Numbered from the stretch's first letter, positions 55,282 to 60,285 are shown. The stretch: DNA of 64,000 nt from Candidatus Magasanikiibacteriota bacterium (GCA_016193335.1 JACPSK010000001.1:585440-649439), one strand, 5' to 3'. The notes: generated by a model not told the origin, from the sequence alone. Translations and numbers: made by a program.

Positions 55282-55523
55282 GTTTTCACAGGATATAGTA
55301 TGGAGGCTTATTGGTCAATGAATGATATATGAGCTTGAGATTGACATCCAAAGCTATCTATGGTATAAAATCTAGTCAAAAGTTTCTCCGACTGTTTTTT
55401 TCTCTTTATTAACACAAAATAAAGGGCAGAAGTCAGTCGGGAGAAACGCCCGACCAGTTGGCGGTCTGGGGCTCCGGCATGGCGCTGGAGTGAGAGGCTG
55501 CCATTGCGTAGGAGGAAGTCCCC

Positions 55524-56399
55524 ATGGGACGACGTAGTAGGAGTGAAATCTCCGCGATCATGAGCGGAGCAGGTGTCGTTACCGCTGTCTGGACCAAGCT
55601 CGACGCCGCCGTGAGGAAGCTCGACAGCGCGGCTGCGGATGCCTGTCTCTATCGGCTGGCGACGGAGGAGGGAGACGATGTCATCCTCGAGATGGCGAAG
55701 GCTGCCGTGGCGGCACAGAAGAAGGGCACGGCGGCTCCTGTGGCGGCGCCGCAACTGCCGCCTCCGTCCGTCATAGACATCTCGAAGTTCTTCGCGCCGG
55801 TCGCGGACAGTGAGGCCATCATCCTGCTCACGCCGCAGTTCGGTAGCGAAGAGGCGGCGCGGATCGTGTACCAGTGCCGTCAGCTCGCCATGGACGAGGG
55901 CTACACCGGCTTCATCTTCTGGCGCGCCGCGGCCGGCTTCCTGTGGCGGACGCACGGTCCGCTTTTCGGCACCTGCCGCGAGAACTGGAAGTACCTCCAG
56001 ACCTGGAGGCTGAAGAACGACCCGACCACGACCGACTCCCTGGCCTTCTTCGTCCCGCGGCTGCTCACTGGCAGCACGGGCAAGGCGGTCACGGACCAGC
56101 GCAAGCTCCTCGTCGAGACGCGAGCCAAGTACACGCTCCCCGAGCCCTTCCTCAAGGACTTTGGTTCGGCCGCGTACGTCGCCGGACTGACGCTCTCGCA
56201 CCACCGCATCACGAGCGAGCGCACGCCGCTCGACCTGCTGTGGGCGCGCTGCGAAACGTTCCGCGAGGATGGCGGTCGCCTCGGCTTCGGCTTCTTCCTC
56301 GAGTCGAGCGGCCTCGGCTGCCTCAACTGGGACGACGGCCTCCCGGTCGACTTCATCGGCATCTTCCCCCTGGGGGTGGTGCCGATCCTCGGTCACTAG
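55524..56399 (+). CDS. DGR target (variable) protein; GC-rich; the C-terminal about 38 aa are encoded by the variable repeat
   Basis: RBS AGGAGG precedes ATG 55524. Strong GC3 codon bias on the plus strand. The C-terminus ...REDGGRLGFGFFLESSGLGCLNWDDGLPVDFIGIFPL is encoded by the VR. Confidence 0.85.
   Translation: MGRRSRSEISAIMSGAGVVTAVWTKLDAAVRKLDSAAADACLYRLATEEGDDVILEMAKAAVAAQKKGTAAPVAAPQLPPPSVIDISKFFAPVADSEAIILLTPQFGSEEAARIVYQCRQLAMDEGYTGFIFWRAAAGFLWRTHGPLFGTCRENWKYLQTWRLKNDPTTTDSLAFFVPRLLTGSTGKAVTDQRKLLVETRAKYTLPEPFLKDFGSAAYVAGLTLSHHRITSERTPLDLLWARCETFREDGGRLGFGFFLESSGLGCLNWDDGLPVDFIGIFPLGVVPILGH
56259..56372 (+). repeat. DGR variable repeat (VR)
   Basis: About 114 bp aligning to 56739-56852 with about 20 mismatches. 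Every mismatch is at an A in the TR copy (e.g. GGC/GAC, TTC/AAC, CTC/AAC, GTC/AAC). The 3' end ATCGGCATCTTCCCCCTG is identical in both (IMH-like). Confidence 0.9.
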
Positions 56400-56738
56400 G
56401 ATCCTCGGTACTGACACGAAGTCGGTACCTTGGTCCATCGGTCTTTGGGCCCCACCCGCAACGCATTTCGGTGCAACGCGCGTGAGGCTTCTTCTTTTAT
56501 ATACAAAATGTGATATACTTTTTTTGCATTATACCGACAGCACCGGCGTCCACGGATGCCGGCCGATAATGTCTGGCAACAGAATTGTAGAATTACAAAA
56601 CGTACGCGTTTTGTAAGAACATCCCTGTTGTTTGTGGGTTCACACACCCCGTGTTGGACGTTAAGAGACAGCGGTTTCACATTCGATACAGCTCGGAGAG
56701 TTTTCAACGAGCAGTGGCACGGACAGCGCTCAACACTT

Positions 56739-56852
56739 TTCCACGAGGATGGCGGACGCCTCGACTTCGGCAACTTCAACGAGTCGAACGGCCTCAACTG
56801 CAACAACTGGAACGACGACAACCCGAACGACAACATCGGCATCTTCCCCCTG
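56739..56852 (+). repeat. DGR template repeat (TR)
   Basis: Carries AAC (Asn) codons wherever the VR has diversified codons. It lies between the target gene and the avd/RT genes. The listed ORF 56556-56885 merely reads through it. Confidence 0.9.
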
Positions 56853-56898
56853 ATGATGTGTGCACCCAAAAGACGATTCCTCTGAATCGTCTTTGACG

Positions 56899-57282
56899 TT
56901 ATTTCAAACTGTGTAGCCACCCGCCGATCATTTTACCGATTACTGCCAGGCGTTCTGACAATTGCGCGTATTTGTTATTGTCCAGTGCTTTGATTTCCCA
57001 AAGAATTTGCAGAAAGAATTTTAACGCGTCAAATTGAGCACTTAATTTTTTAACAATGGCTAGCTTGTTTGTCCGTTCCGCATAACCGGCCGCGAGCGCC
57101 AGTGATAAAATATCGGTAAAAATTGCATCAATTTTTATACCCAATGAATACCGTGTGAGTCGTGGCAAATGAATTAAAAAACTATGCCAGAGTTTATAGG
57201 CGTTACTCAAACCATCAACGATCGGAATGTAGCTCTGGGGGGGGGGATTCCTAGTTTCGGATTGCGTAAGCAATTGCTTCAT
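56899..57282 (-). CDS. avd: Accessory variability determinant (Avd)-like four-helix-bundle protein (start placed at MKQLL; the ORF opens at 57330)
   Basis: About 127 aa. ...LPRLTRYSLGIKIDAIFTDILSLALAAGYAERTNKLAIVKKLSAQFDALKFFLQILWEIKAL...ERLAVIGKMIGGWLHSLK resembles Bordetella-phage bAvd and the 23S-rRNA-intervening-sequence four-helix-bundle family. It is on the strand opposite to the TR and RT. Confidence 0.7.
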   Translation of the reverse strand: MKQLLTQSETRNPPPQSYIPIVDGLSNAYKLWHSFLIHLPRLTRYSLGIKIDAIFTDILSLALAAGYAERTNKLAIVKKLSAQFDALKFFLQILWEIKALDNNKYAQLSERLAVIGKMIGGWLHSLK

Positions 57283-58281
57283 AGCTATGGTGATATTATT
57301 TCTATATCCAATCTTCTTGCCGCTTGGCAAGAGTTTGAAGTTGGAAAGAGTAAGAAATATGACGTTGTTCTGTTTGCGGATAGGTTAATGGACAACATCC
57401 TAGCACTCTATACGGATTTAGTAAACCGGACATATATCCACGGTGGTTATCGTGAATTTCGCATCAACGATCCCAAACCGCGTCTGATTCACAAAGCGAG
57501 TGTGCGCGACCGTTTGCTACATCATGCGGTACATAGAATGCTCTATCCTTTTTTTGATCGAATTTTTATTTTTGATTCCTTTTCTTGTCGGACCAATAAG
57601 GGCGTGCGTGCGGCGATTAACCGATTCAGAAAATGCGCGCACAAGGTCGGGCGCAACCATACACGCACAGTATGGGTCTTGAAATGTGATATTCGAAAGT
57701 TTTTTGCGAATATTGATCATGAAATTTTGTTGCGTATTCTTGATTATTATATTCCGGATAAAAGAATTGTGGATTTGCTGGAGAATATTATTGTAAGTTT
57801 TTCTATGACATCTGGTACTTCAGTTGGTTTGCCGTTGGGAAATTTGACCTCGCAGTTATTTTCCAACATTTATTTAGACCGACTCGATAGATGGGTGAAG
57901 CATCAGTTAAAAGAAAAGCATTATATTCGTTACGCGGATGATTTTGTGTTTTTATCCGCGGACAGAAATTATTTGCTGTCCTTGATTCCACAGGTGCAAC
58001 ATCTTTTATCCTGCACCTTAAAATTAGATCTGCATCCGAATAAATTTTTTTTAAAAACTATTGCGTCAGGTGTGGATTTTTTGGGCTGGATACACTTTTC
58101 AGATCACCGTGTACTTCGAAAAGTGACAAAACGGCGAATGACGAGAAAATTGGCGGAAAATTTCAAACCGGAAGTCCTGCAGTCGTATTTGGGATTACTC
58201 TCGCATGGGAATACGTTTAAGCTGCAAGAGACGATTAAGAATCAATTTTGGTTGGGCGGCACGCATATGTTAATGGGGTAG
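57184..58281 (+). CDS. DGR reverse transcriptase
   Basis: DGR-RT N-terminal block (NLLAAWQEFEVGKSKKYDVVLFADRLMDNILALYTDLVNRTYIHGGYREFRINDPKPRLIHKASVRDRLLHHAV), motif GLPLGNLTSQLFSNIYL and the catalytic IRYADDFVF. An alternative TTG start near 57262 is possible. Confidence 0.9.
   Translation: MPEFIGVTQTINDRNVALGGGIPSFGLRKQLLHSYGDIISISNLLAAWQEFEVGKSKKYDVVLFADRLMDNILALYTDLVNRTYIHGGYREFRINDPKPRLIHKASVRDRLLHHAVHRMLYPFFDRIFIFDSFSCRTNKGVRAAINRFRKCAHKVGRNHTRTVWVLKCDIRKFFANIDHEILLRILDYYIPDKRIVDLLENIIVSFSMTSGTSVGLPLGNLTSQLFSNIYLDRLDRWVKHQLKEKHYIRYADDFVFLSADRNYLLSLIPQVQHLLSCTLKLDLHPNKFFLKTIASGVDFLGWIHFSDHRVLRKVTKRRMTRKLAENFKPEVLQSYLGLLSHGNTFKLQETIKNQFWLGGTHMLMG
57237..57246. repeat. G10/C10 homopolymer tract inside the avd coding sequence and the RT 5' region
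   Basis: CTGGGGGGGGGGATTCC. It encodes GGG in the RT frame (if the ATG at 57184 is used) and NPPPQ in avd on the opposite strand. Confidence 0.85.
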
Positions 58282-58486
58282 TAGAGCTACTATAAGTAAG
58301 TAAGCTTGATAAAGCCGTTTTTTTATTTTATAGTCAAAAGTCAATTTGCGTGAGACGCAAAGACATCGCAATGGATTGCGGCTTTTTTGCGTCTTGCGAC
58401 CGGAATATCGGTTTCGAGACAGACTCGGGCTTTGCTCGGGTTTCAGGACGACAATTGGGTTTGAGAATGAAAAGAGGAGACAGCAA

Positions 58487-59944
58487 GTGAACAGGTTGGC
58501 CAAAATTTTTGTTGTTTTGTTCTATGTGTCTTGTTCCTGTCCTGAAGAGGACGGGGCGGTCATTGCGGATGTTTCGAGTTTTGGCAAGGACGCCGCCGCT
58601 TCCGTTGACACGACCGTGGCCGATATGAACGGCCAACTCGGGTTGTGCTACGTGGCTGAAGATGGCACGCCTTGCGACGATGAGAACGCCTGCACCACGG
58701 GCGATGAGTGCGAGGATGGACATTGCATCGGCGCCACGAGCGTGGTCTGCAAGAGCGACAGCGCTTGCGTGCCGACGAGCTGTGACCCACAGACCGGCTG
58801 TCTTATTGGCGAGACCTTGCCTGATGGCTCGGCCTGCAGCTTGGCTTGCCATGTGGAGGCTTACTGCGAAGCAGGCGACTGCTTGCCTGCCCAAGGCTCC
58901 AAGGTCCAATGTCCGAAGAGCGAGAACCCTTGCGTGGATCACCTGGAGTGCGACTCGGCCAACGGCCAGTGCACGATCCAGATCTTCAAGCCCGAGGGAG
59001 CTTCTTGCGACACGGACGTGAACACTTGCACGTTGGAGACCTGTGACGGTAACGGCCTATGCGCGGCTCAAGGCAAGAACGATTGCGCCGGCCTCAAGGC
59101 CATTGATCCGTGCTGGGCTTACCAGTGTTTGCCGGGCAAGGGTTGCGTGAAGCAACCGGGCGTGTTCTTCTTCAGCCTCTCTTGCGACGACGGGAGTCCT
59201 TGCACGATCAACGACGAATGTCAGCTCTCCGAGGGCGGCCTCGGTGGTTGCAAGGGAACTCCGCTGAAGACGAACGACGGCAACCCCTGCACCAGCGACT
59301 CCTGTGTCGCGGGTGAGGTCTTGCACGAGCCCATCAACGGCGCGCCCTGCGACGACGGCAACCCCTGCAGCGTCTCGGTCTGTGAGGGCAAGATCTGCGT
59401 CTACTACTCGCCGAGCGACTGCACAGACGGCAACCCCTGCACGGACGACGCCTGCAGTGACACCAGCGGCTGCGTCTACTTCGTCAACGACGGCAACCCT
59501 TGCGACGACGGCAACCCCTGCACCAGTGACTTTTGCAAGCAAGGGGTTGGCTGTGAGGCCGAAGTGCTGGTCGCGACGCCCTGTGAGGATGGGAGTCTCT
59601 GTAGCCTCGAGGACTTCTGCTTCGCGGGTGTCTGTCAGCCTGGCGCGAAGAGTCTCGGCTGCACAGACGGCAACCCCTGCACAGACGACGCCTGCCAACC
59701 GGCCAAGGGCTGCGTGTTCACGAACAACGCCAAGCCCTGCGACGACGGCAGCGCCTGCACCGAGGGGAGCTTCTGCAAGAACGGCTCTTGCAGTGGCTAC
59801 GCGGTGCTGAAGACCTGCCTGGACAACAACTCTTGCACCGAGGACATCTGCACCCCGCTGATTCCGGACTGCGTCTTCCCCACGAAGACCGATGGCGTCC
59901 CTTGCGGCGGAGACAAGATCTGTCTCTCGGGCGTCTGCCTGTAG
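58487..59944 (+). CDS. GC-rich secreted cysteine-repeat protein (CDDGNPC / DGNPCTDDAC repeats, Myxococcales-type Cys-rich repeat-like)
   Basis: GTG 58487 is preceded by AAGAGGAG. Lipoprotein-like signal MNRLAKIFVVLFYVSCSC, then at least 12 tandem Cys-rich units (...DGNPCTSDSC..., APCDDGNPCSVSVC, TDGNPCTDDACSDTSGC, NPCDDGNPCTSDFC, TDGNPCTDDACQPAKGC, KPCDDGSACTEGSFC). The ORF opens at TTG 58346. Confidence 0.75.
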   Translation: MNRLAKIFVVLFYVSCSCPEEDGAVIADVSSFGKDAAASVDTTVADMNGQLGLCYVAEDGTPCDDENACTTGDECEDGHCIGATSVVCKSDSACVPTSCDPQTGCLIGETLPDGSACSLACHVEAYCEAGDCLPAQGSKVQCPKSENPCVDHLECDSANGQCTIQIFKPEGASCDTDVNTCTLETCDGNGLCAAQGKNDCAGLKAIDPCWAYQCLPGKGCVKQPGVFFFSLSCDDGSPCTINDECQLSEGGLGGCKGTPLKTNDGNPCTSDSCVAGEVLHEPINGAPCDDGNPCSVSVCEGKICVYYSPSDCTDGNPCTDDACSDTSGCVYFVNDGNPCDDGNPCTSDFCKQGVGCEAEVLVATPCEDGSLCSLEDFCFAGVCQPGAKSLGCTDGNPCTDDACQPAKGCVFTNNAKPCDDGSACTEGSFCKNGSCSGYAVLKTCLDNNSCTEDICTPLIPDCVFPTKTDGVPCGGDKICLSGVCL

Positions 59945-60285
59945 AGAGGCCTTTGTTCTTTTGATGATCCGGACCTGATATTCGTGAACTCAGGTCCTCG
60001 CTTCCCGTCTAGATGAAATATTCCTCTGAACAGGAAGAAAAAAGAAGTTATTTTGGCTTCTTTTTTATTTGAGATGAAAATTAAGTTTCCTTTAAGGAGC
60101 ATCTAAATTTGCTTATGATCTTTGTCGTTAAAGTCTCCTGGATATTTGCTTTTAAACAGGCTAATTTTTTTGTTGGTATGTTAATTGAAGCTTTTTGTAC
60201 TACTATGTTATACTTATTTGGTAGTAATTTCATTATTAGAATATAGGTCGGTTCTAATAATAAATCATTCTTAAAATAATATAGT

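What the first reader, a model, noticed from the sequence alone, without database searches (positions are those of the whole stretch)
56899..57330. Avd encoded antisense to the TR and RT, with its 5' end overlapping the RT 5' end
In described DGRs avd usually sits between the target and the TR, co-oriented with TR and RT. Here the Avd-like ORF is on the minus strand. Its start (57282 or 57330) overlaps the RT start region (57184 or about 57262), so the two genes are divergent and overlapping with a shared promoter region. The Avd assignment itself rests on helix-bundle similarity I judged by eye.
Basis: partly seen in the sequence, partly recalled or inferred. Interest (0 to 1): 0.5.

Follow-up and report, generated by a model that had tools for sequence, protein, structure and literature searches.

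The report
CPR-type DGR avd with poly-C tract
The minus-strand ORF is a genuine Avd accessory gene of a diversity-generating retroelement, and its head-to-head layout with the reverse transcriptase is the published standard for CPR bacteria; it also carries a conserved run of ten C near its start that puts the gene out of frame in most relatives, which may act as an on/off switch for the mutagenesis system.

Summary
ORF 56899-57282 (-) is an Avd: it passes Pfam bAvd, models as a four-helix bundle and superposes on Bordetella phage Avd. It sits in a real DGR, with VR 56259-56372 and TR 56739-56852 differing at 20 positions, all TR adenines.

Family alignment places the avd start at ATG 57282 and the RT start at TTG 57262, not ATG 57184. 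The two genes therefore overlap head-to-head by exactly 21 nt, and this overlap is conserved.

The layout is not unusual. In 74 of 75 related loci avd diverges from RT. Wu et al. 2018 already named TR-(avd)-RT "architecture B3" and found it in 90% of CPR DGRs. No shared promoter could be shown.

One feature appears undescribed. The G10/C10 run at 57237-57246 lies inside the disordered Avd leader and is the only G/C run of 8 or more in the window. It is conserved as C8-C14 across the clade. In about 70% of tract-bearing relatives it separates the start codon from the Avd core by a frameshift, whereas relatives without a tract are in frame. A sister assembly differs from the window only by C9 versus C10. 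I read this as a candidate phase-variable avd; this is inferred, not shown.

The parts
55524..56399 (+). DGR target gene (291 aa) with the VR at its 3' end. No Pfam or NCBIfam match. It lies in a 66% G+C island.
   Evidence: ORF list. VR position. No family hit. Composition.
56259..56372 (+). Variable repeat (VR), 114 nt.
   Evidence: Ungapped alignment to the TR at an offset of 480 nt shows 20 mismatches, all at TR adenines.
56739..56852 (+). Template repeat (TR), 114 nt, rich in AAC.
   Evidence: The template strand is +, the same strand as the RT.
56869..56894 (+). Perfect 11-bp hairpin with a CUCU loop, 16 nt after the TR and 4 nt before the avd stop codon. It is terminator-like for the converging TR and avd transcripts, and may be the counterpart of the Avd-binding stem-loop of BPP-1.
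   Evidence: Terminator scan. DNA fold z = -4.9, 0 of 200 shuffles fold as well. A hairpin of -8 kcal/mol or better starts a median of 11 nt after the TR end in 53 of 61 related loci; all 53 sequences are distinct and most have T-rich tails.
56899..57282 (-). avd, 127 aa, pI 9.77. Residues 1-19 form a disordered leader and residues 20-126 a four-helix bundle.
   Evidence: Pfam and NCBIfam. Homologue alignment. AF2 model plus Foldseek hits to 4dwl and 8ub7. pI.
57237..57246 (-). C10 tract on the avd strand (G10 on +), encoding Pro13-15 of the Avd leader. It is the candidate frame-setting, hypermutable element and is in frame (ON) in this window.
   Evidence: It is the only G/C run of 8 or more in 64 kb. 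58 of the 67 such runs in 653 kb of related loci sit at this junction. Frame statistics. A C9 variant has otherwise identical sequence. C9 or C11 truncates Avd to 24 or 22 aa.
57262..57282 (.). 21-nt head-to-head coding overlap: avd codons 1-7 (MKQLLTQ) on the - strand and RT codons 1-7 (LRKQLLH) on the + strand. The avd ATG is the complement of the RT His7 codon CAT.
   Evidence: Sequence. 21 genome loci have an in-frame avd ATG placed exactly 21 nt across the RT start. The motif CAATTGAATTTTCAT followed by a C-run gave at least 120 hits in metagenomes.
57262..58281 (+). DGR reverse transcriptase, 339 aa from TTG 57262, with LGNLTSQ and YADD motifs. The upstream in-frame ATG 57184 (365 aa) is probably not the start.
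   Evidence: RVT_1, E 9e-23. Start position from the family alignment. Motifs.

Best explanation
Shown: this is the avd gene of a CPR/Patescibacteria-type diversity-generating retroelement in the published TR-(avd)-RT ('B3') layout. The cassette order is target gene with VR, then TR, then a hairpin, then avd on the opposite strand, then RT. Avd and RT start back-to-back, with their first seven codons sharing the same 21 bp.

From established DGR biology: Avd is a basic four-helix-bundle protein that in the Bordetella phage system forms a pentamer. There it acts with the RT and the TR RNA to make adenine-mutagenised cDNA that replaces the VR.

Inferred, transcription: the TR is followed by a terminator-like hairpin that faces the end of avd. 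The TR RNA, avd and RT are therefore probably three separate transcription units, and the promoters of avd and RT would each lie inside the other gene.

Inferred, the tract (my probability about 0.5): the 19-residue disordered leader of Avd contains a C10 run whose length sets the reading frame between the start codon and the helical core. Slipped-strand changes in this run would switch Avd, and with it DGR mutagenesis, on and off. It is in frame (on) here.
For: DGR and Avd identity:
- TR/VR pair with 20 of 20 mismatches at TR adenines.
- RT with RVT_1, LGNLTSQ and YADD.
- Avd by Pfam (above the gathering cut-off), NCBIfam E 8e-16, and an AF2 model with Foldseek hits to 4dwl and 8ub7. pI is 9.77, against 9.5 +/- 0.7 reported for Avd (PMC5758913).

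Layout:
- avd diverges from RT in 74 of 75 related loci.
- B3 is 90% of the CPR set in Wu et al..
- The 21-nt overlap and the RT start position are conserved.

Hairpin: present after the TR in 53 of 61 loci against 21 of 59 controls, with 53 distinct sequences and T-rich tails.

Tract:
- It is unique in the window, and 58 of 67 G/C runs of 8 or more in related loci lie at this junction.
- The ATG frame has no stop before the tract in 63 of 63 unique segments, against stops in 16 and 53 segments in the other two frames.
- Loci without a tract are in frame 10 of 11. Loci with a tract are in frame 11 and out of frame 25 (Fisher p = 0.001).
- In de-duplicated metagenome loci the frame offset is 0/1/2 in 16/40/8.
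- The Avd core and RT stay intact in out-of-frame loci.
- The window (C10) and L084 (C9) are identical over 1,268 nt apart from the tract. L088/L080 and L130/L163 behave likewise.
Against: Weaknesses on identity and transcription:
- The NCBIfam score is below the equivalog cut-off (58 against 80).
- A family profile finds no PDB chain by sequence.
- No promoter was found, so the transcription-unit model is inferred.
- The U-tail of the window's hairpin is weak.

Weaknesses on the switch:
- No read-level data are available, and only about three independent tract-length changes were seen among near-identical sequences.
- Offset 1 is over-represented (57 of 101; chi-square p = 3e-6). A simple unbiased switch does not predict this.
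- Seven assemblies of one population and three of another all show the same out-of-frame length. Those look-ups were biased toward that state.

Literature gap: Paul et al. 2017, the main paper on CPR DGRs, is not held, so I cannot exclude that the tract has been described.
Confidence: 0.55

Rival explanations
1. Recoding rather than a genetic switch. The poly-C run is decoded by RNA-polymerase slippage or by +1 slippage of tRNA-Pro on CCC_C, helped by polyproline stalling. Out-of-frame alleles then still give a fixed low amount of full-length Avd, and offset 1 is the designed state.
For: Offset 1, which needs a +1 ribosomal shift or one C fewer in the mRNA, is the commonest state: 40 of 64 metagenome loci and 17 of 36 genome loci. 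It is stable across 7 and 3 assemblies of two populations. The run encodes PPP.
Against: All three offsets occur, and tract-less relatives are simply in frame. The tract starts at any codon position, and no stop or conserved codon follows it, so the classical +1 site signature is absent. The tRNA-Pro in the window is ordinary. From general knowledge, RNA-polymerase slippage is best documented on A/T runs, not G/C runs.
Confidence: 0.2
2. The run is mainly a transcription or translation element of the RT. As poly-G it lies 15-30 nt upstream of the RT start, for example as a length-sensitive promoter spacer like the poly-C and poly-G promoter tracts of Bordetella fim or Neisseria porA/opc. Its effect on the avd frame is secondary.
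For: The hairpin after the TR suggests the RT needs its own promoter, which must lie in this stretch. The run sits just upstream of the RT start in all loci.
Against: No promoter consensus was found. The distance from the run to the RT start varies from 3 to about 50 nt. The stop-free ATG frame up to the run and the in-frame rule for tract-less loci show that it lies within the avd ORF. The two roles are not exclusive.
Confidence: 0.1
3. There is no regulatory role. The run is only a Pro-Pro-Pro linker, and out-of-frame relatives use an unrecognised start downstream or are inactive copies.
For: The leader is disordered and poorly conserved apart from PPP. Some loci have a TTG one codon before the core.
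Against: Most out-of-frame loci have no ATG, GTG or TTG between the last upstream stop and helix 1. Exclusive CCC usage giving C8-C14 runs is unexpected: in the window's own genes CCC is only about 25% of Pro codons. Core and RT are intact in the out-of-frame loci.
Confidence: 0.1
4. The tract-length differences are sequencing or assembly errors, and avd is always in frame.
For: Long G/C homopolymers are error-prone. Some loci come from Nanopore-based bins (L042, L061).
Against: About 70% of tract-bearing loci are out of frame, with a non-random bias. The same length was recovered in 7, 3 and 7 independent assemblies.
Confidence: 0.05

Closest known systems
Architecture B3, TR-(avd)-RT, of CPR DGRs (Wu et al. 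2018, NAR 46:11; PMC5758913)
   Same: Same order and orientation of TR, avd and RT. The target gene with its VR lies upstream on the TR/RT strand. The host is a CPR bacterium (Candidatus Magasanikbacteria by the record names). The paper reports B3 for 90% of its CPR set.
   Different: Nothing in the layout differs. The paper's main text does not mention the 21-nt start overlap, the poly-C run or the TR-proximal hairpin that overlaps the avd 3' end.
Bordetella phage BPP-1 DGR (mtd-avd-TR-brt; Avd structures 4dwl and 8ub7)
   Same: Adenine-specific TR/VR differences. The RT has the [ILV]GxxxSQ motif. Avd is a basic four-helix bundle that superposes at 1.5 A. A stem-loop of about 11 bp with a tetraloop follows the TR, as for Sp 3-33, which binds Avd (bioRxiv 10.1101/2023.10.23.563531).
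   Different: In BPP-1, avd lies upstream of the TR on the same strand, and its 3' end is part of the DGR RNA. A 140-nt spacer between TR and brt carries the priming adenosine and the RT-binding elements. Here avd is inverted between TR and RT, and the sequence after the hairpin is antisense avd. The hairpin looks like a terminator, so the spacer elements, if any, are not in the same place. Avd sequence identity is only 17%.
Homopolymeric-tract contingency genes (Campylobacter, Neisseria, Helicobacter and Bordetella poly-G/C tracts)
   Same: A G/C run of 8-14 (mode 9-10) near the 5' end of an ORF. The run length decides the frame. Run length differs between otherwise identical sequences. (General knowledge; reviews listed.)
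   Different: The host is a free-living or episymbiotic CPR bacterium, not a pathogen. The gene is an accessory factor of a targeted hypermutation system rather than a surface or restriction-modification gene. Switching has not been observed directly. The run also lies just upstream of a divergent gene.

Membership tests
Diversity-generating retroelement (DGR) | TR/VR repeat pair whose differences fall at TR adenines | tested here: met
   114-nt repeat with 20 of 20 mismatches at TR adenines.
Diversity-generating retroelement (DGR) | VR at the 3' end of a target ORF, on the same strand as the TR | tested here: met
   VR 56259-56372 lies within ORF 55524-56399 and ends 27 nt before the stop.
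Diversity-generating retroelement (DGR) | RT of the DGR type, with the [ILV]GxxxSQ motif and catalytic YxDD | tested here: met
   RVT_1 at E 9e-23. LGNLTSQ at residue 192 and YADD at 224. That this motif is a DGR signature comes from my knowledge of the DGR literature.
Diversity-generating retroelement (DGR) | Mutagenic retrohoming activity (ongoing VR diversification) | not testable with these tools
   This needs read-level VR heterogeneity or an experiment.
Avd (Pfam PF22296 bAvd; NCBIfam NF033474 DivGenRetAVD) | Profile match above the curated cut-off | tested here: inconclusive
   Pfam 43.4 bits against a cut-off of 40, which is met. NCBIfam equivalog 58.2 bits against a cut-off of 80, which is not met although E = 8e-16. 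A family profile finds no PDB chain by sequence.
Avd (Pfam PF22296 bAvd; NCBIfam NF033474 DivGenRetAVD) | Four-helix-bundle fold like BPP-1 Avd | tested here: met
   AF2 pLDDT 87 with helices 20-36, 41-67, 70-96 and 102-126. Foldseek hits 4dwl (TM 0.76/0.89, rmsd 1.5 A) and 8ub7.
Avd (Pfam PF22296 bAvd; NCBIfam NF033474 DivGenRetAVD) | Small basic protein encoded next to a DGR RT | tested here: met
   127 aa with pI 9.77. It is adjacent to the RT here and in 75 of 80 related loci.
Avd (Pfam PF22296 bAvd; NCBIfam NF033474 DivGenRetAVD) | Pentamer that binds the RT and the TR-proximal RNA stem-loop | not testable with these tools
   No multimer modelling or binding assay is available.
Cassette architecture B3 (Wu et al. 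2018) | Order TR, then avd on the reverse strand, then RT, with no other accessory gene | tested here: met
   Coordinates. No other family hit in the cassette. Definition taken.
Homopolymer-mediated phase-variable (contingency) gene | G/C run of 8 or more inside the ORF, positioned so that +/-1 nt abolishes the product | tested here: met
   C10 at codons 12-16. C9 or C11 gives products of 24 or 22 aa.
Homopolymer-mediated phase-variable (contingency) gene | Run length differs between otherwise identical or near-identical sequences | tested here: met
   Window C10 against L084 C9 with 0 mismatches in 1,268 nt. L088 C9 against L080 C10 with identical 300-nt flanks. L130 C8 against L163 C9 at 99.5% identity. 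This amounts to about three independent events.
Homopolymer-mediated phase-variable (contingency) gene | Reversible within-population switching with a change in expression | not testable with these tools
   No reads, transcripts or cultures are available.
Programmed +1 frameshift or transcriptional-slippage gene | The same out-of-frame arrangement in all members, with a fixed slippery site and stimulator | tested here: not met
   Offsets 0, 1 and 2 all occur. The run starts at any codon position and no conserved stop or codon follows it.

The most novel reading that the evidence does not exclude
Across CPR/Patescibacteria DGRs, a conserved C8-C14 run in the avd leader is a contingency switch. 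Slipped-strand length changes turn Avd on and off stochastically, and with it targeted hypermutation of the DGR target. Because the run also lies just upstream of the divergent RT start, it could tune both genes. That would be a hypermutable switch controlling a hypermutation machine, and a first handle on how DGR activity is regulated in nature.
Probability: 0.45. Interest if true: 0.75.

Novelty: new member of a known kind. Interest (0 to 1): 0.5.

Why it matters
As flagged, the finding is ordinary. An antisense avd abutting the RT is the normal cassette of CPR DGRs and has been published. Its practical value is for annotation. Gene callers give this avd as 81 or 127 aa and this RT as 297 or 365 aa. 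The family alignment gives 127 aa for avd (start 57282) and 339 aa for RT (start 57262).

The poly-C run could matter more. How DGR mutagenesis is switched on or kept in check is largely unknown. A conserved, frame-setting hypermutable run in the essential accessory gene gives a concrete hypothesis. It can be tested with existing metagenomes by comparing run length per read with VR diversification.

The conserved terminator-like hairpin directly after the TR also suggests that the template RNA of this clade lacks the long 3' spacer that the Bordetella phage enzyme needs. If so, cDNA priming may work differently here.

Tried and rejected
- Sigma-70 promoter scan of 56380-57700: no site, against 1.9 expected from shuffles, so there is no evidence for a shared bidirectional promoter.
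- Search for a better Avd on the + strand or elsewhere in the cassette: eight other ORFs have no relevant Pfam hit.
- Profile search of the Avd family against PDB sequences: no hit. Fold comparison was needed to link it to 4dwl.
- Rfam on the whole window: only tRNAs, with no known RNA family in the cassette.
- Classical +1 frameshift signature (fixed codon register, following stop or rare codon): absent.
- Unusual tRNA-Pro: not found.
- ATG 57184 as the RT start: rejected, because relatives start at the position of TTG 57262, and the upstream extension would read through the variable G run.
- TTG 57330 as the avd start: rejected, because homologues start at the ATG.
- An early scan anchored on the avd stop codon found a hairpin in only about 30% of loci. 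Re-anchoring on the TR end showed it in 53 of 61.
- Literature: no paper links DGR or avd with homopolymers, frameshifts or phase variation. Paul et al. 2017 could not be read.

Full report
**What is at the coordinates.** The ORF list shows a minus-strand ORF at 56899-57330, which is 143 aa from a TTG and 127 aa from ATG 57282. It faces a plus-strand RT ORF at 57184-58281. The minus-strand protein matches Pfam bAvd at 43.4 bits, above the gathering cut-off of 40. It matches NCBIfam DivGenRetAVD at E 8e-16, although the 58 bits fall below that model's strict cut-off of 80.

An AlphaFold2 model built on 29 homologues has a mean pLDDT of 87. It shows four helices (20-36, 41-67, 70-96, 102-126) after a disordered leader of 19 residues. 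Foldseek against the PDB returns Xcc0516 (2gsc), Bordetella phage Avd (4dwl: TM 0.76/0.89, rmsd 1.5 A) and the Avd chains of the bRT-Avd ribonucleoprotein (8ub7) as top hits. The protein is basic, with pI 9.77, as reported for Avd proteins (PMC5758913). No other ORF of the cassette resembles Avd.

**The surrounding element is a genuine DGR.** A 114-nt repeat links 56259-56372, at the 3' end of ORF 55524-56399, with 56739-56852. All 20 differences fall at adenines of the second copy, which makes it the TR. The RT carries RVT_1, LGNLTSQ and YADD. The cassette order is target/VR (+), TR (+), avd (-), RT (+).

**Start codons and the overlap.** Twenty-four homologues share an N-terminus MxQLxFH followed by a variable linker with PPP, which supports ATG 57282. 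I fetched 80 related loci from species-representative genomes, nearly all Patescibacteria by their record titles. In 55 of 72 with a readable junction, the RT starts with an ATG that aligns with the window's TTG 57262, two codons before the conserved KQL/IQL.

The avd ATG is the complement of RT codon 7 (CAT, His). In most relatives the RT ATG is the complement of avd codon 7 (CAT). In the window avd codon 7 is CAA, hence the RT TTG start. The two genes therefore share exactly 21 bp (57262-57282). In 21 genome loci an in-frame avd ATG sits in precisely this register. The upstream ATG 57184 and the TTG 57330 are not supported as starts.

**Is the arrangement unusual?** It is not. In 74 of the 75 related loci that contain an RT, avd is on the opposite strand, head-to-head and abutting the RT. 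Wu et al. 2018 classified DGR cassettes and defined architecture B3 as TR-(avd)-RT, the parentheses meaning reverse strand. For a CPR genome (Candidatus Magasanikbacteria by the NCBI name of the near-identical protein P0004) this is the expected layout.

A 'shared promoter region' is not demonstrated. There is no non-coding DNA between the genes, and a sigma-70 consensus scan found nothing.

**The poly-C run.** Inside the finding's interval, at 57237-57246, lies G10 on the plus strand, which is C10 on the avd strand and encodes Pro13-15 of the disordered leader.

- It is the only G/C homopolymer of 8 or more in the 64-kb window.
- In 653 kb of related loci, 58 of 67 such runs lie at this same junction.
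- Most relatives carry C8-C14 between the overlapped ATG segment and the Avd core.

In these loci the frame of the ATG relative to the Avd core varies.

| Data set | Offset 0 | Offset 1 | Offset 2 |
|---|---|---|---|
| 64 de-duplicated metagenome loci | 16 | 40 | 8 |
| 36 tract-bearing genome loci | 11 | 17 | 8 |

Several observations show that the ATG segment is nevertheless part of avd.

- Loci lacking a long run are in frame in 10 of 11 cases (Fisher p = 0.001 against tract-bearing loci).
- The ATG frame contains no stop before the run in 63 of 63 distinct segments. The other two frames have stops in 16 and 53 of them.
- Most out-of-frame loci have no alternative start codon between the last upstream stop and helix 1.
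- Their Avd core and RT remain intact.

Run length also differs between otherwise identical sequences. A Logan assembly from SRR4343435 (L084) matches the window over 1,268 nt with no mismatch and a single gap, C9 against C10. L088 (C9) and L080 (C10) have identical 300-nt flanks. L130 (C8) and L163 (C9) are 99.5% identical. In the window the run is in frame. C9 or C11 would truncate Avd to 24 or 22 residues.

**How the run may work.** The pattern matches homopolymer-mediated phase variation: a G/C run of 9-10, located 5' in the ORF, with length polymorphism between near-clones. I consider a DNA-level on/off switch of Avd, and hence of DGR mutagenesis, the most likely reading, at about 0.45-0.5.

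The excess of offset 1, and its stability in two populations (though those look-ups were biased), leave room for recoding. That could be transcriptional slippage or tRNA-Pro +1 slippage on CCC_C. However, the run has no fixed codon register and no following stop, and all three offsets occur. The run could also act on the RT, since it lies 15-30 nt upstream of the RT start. Sequencing error cannot explain a 70% out-of-frame rate with reproducible lengths. None of this is shown experimentally.

**The hairpin after the TR.** Sixteen nucleotides after the TR, and 4 nt before the avd stop, is a perfect 11-bp hairpin at 56869-56894 (z = -4.9). I located the TR ends in related loci through A-biased TR/VR pairs, which 61 of 72 loci have. 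In 53 of those 61, a hairpin of -8 kcal/mol or better starts a median of 11 nt after the TR. In a control stretch inside the RT the figure is 21 of 59. All 53 sequences are distinct, and most have T-rich tails on the TR strand.

In most relatives the hairpin overlaps the avd 3' end. The common Avd C-terminal tail KKETPPN is the complement of the T-run plus the 3' arm. This looks like an intrinsic terminator for the TR transcript. It may double as the Avd-binding stem-loop that directly follows the TR in BPP-1 (bioRxiv 10.1101/2023.10.23.563531).

If it terminates, then the TR RNA, avd and RT are separate transcription units. The RT promoter would lie in the avd 5' part, and the long 3' spacer used for priming in BPP-1 would have no obvious counterpart. 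This is inference.

**Comparison and novelty.** The cassette is a member of the DGR family and of architecture B3. The tested defining features are met, except that the NCBIfam equivalog cut-off is missed. It works like the BPP-1 system in its parts, but avd is inverted between TR and RT.

I could not find the 21-nt start overlap, the TR-proximal hairpin overlapping avd, or the poly-C run in the searchable literature. The key CPR paper (Paul et al. 2017) is not held.

I therefore rate the flagged finding as a new member of a known kind. A candidate new feature, phase-variable avd, is scored separately.

**Limits.** I had no read-level, RNA or protein data, and promoters were not identified. 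The related loci are not phylogenetically independent, so the p-values are indicative only. About three independent strain-level run-length changes were seen.

Noticed in passing
window 55400-56450 and 58400-59950: Two G+C-rich islands (about 66% and 62%) flank the DGR in a context of about 40-45% G+C. The first is the DGR target gene. The second is a 532-aa Cys-rich repeat protein (58346-59944) with Dictyostelium-repeat (PF00526) matches. avd and RT themselves have ordinary composition. In the first island the high G+C produces long spurious ORFs on several frames (for example 55308-56438 on the minus strand).
   Followed up: partly
window 56869-56894; related loci L001-L080: A terminator-like hairpin directly after the TR is conserved in 53 of 61 related DGRs. 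It usually overlaps the avd 3' end, so the Avd C-terminal tail 'KKETPPN' is the complement of the T-run and stem arm. The window belongs to a subclass (with L007, L011, L013 and L062) in which the hairpin is intergenic and flanked by A and T runs.
   Followed up: yes
window 56511-56519: TGaTATACT, an extended -10-like sequence, lies in the AT-rich gap between the target gene and the TR, on the + strand. It could be the promoter of the TR RNA. This was seen by eye; the consensus scan did not report it because there is no -35.
   Followed up: no
window 56407-56429: A 9-bp inverted repeat (GGTACTGAC / GTCGGTACC) lies about 35 nt after the VR and just past the target stop codon. It may correspond to the GC-rich inverted repeat found downstream of IMH in other DGRs. 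The fold z-score is only -2.2.
   Followed up: partly
window 57184-57330; L081-L087: Public gene calls for this same locus disagree. avd is called as 81 aa (NCBI 'four helix bundle protein', starting at an internal TTG) or 127 aa. RT is called as 297 or 365 aa. The causes are the start overlap and the in-frame G run.
   Followed up: partly
window 57283-57300 (- strand, upstream of the avd ATG): The complement of the conserved RT codons for D-I-I gives AATAATATC. Within it, a -10-like TAATAT ends 10 nt before the avd ATG, which would imply a nearly leaderless avd mRNA. This is speculative and untested.
   Followed up: no
L167 (about 30 nt after the ATG) and L132/L155: Some relatives have compound homopolymers at the same place: C8 followed by T15 (L167), or C9 followed by A9 (L132, L155).
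   Followed up: no
L069; L007 and L075: There are exceptions to the layout. In L069 the RT lies about 1.5 kb downstream of avd on the same strand. In L007 and L075 the distance between the conserved cores of avd and RT is 171 and 149 nt, instead of about 30-70 nt.
   Followed up: no
related loci L001-L080, outside the avd/RT junction: Nine further C/G runs of 8 or more lie elsewhere in the 653 kb of related loci. I did not examine which genes they fall in.
   Followed up: no
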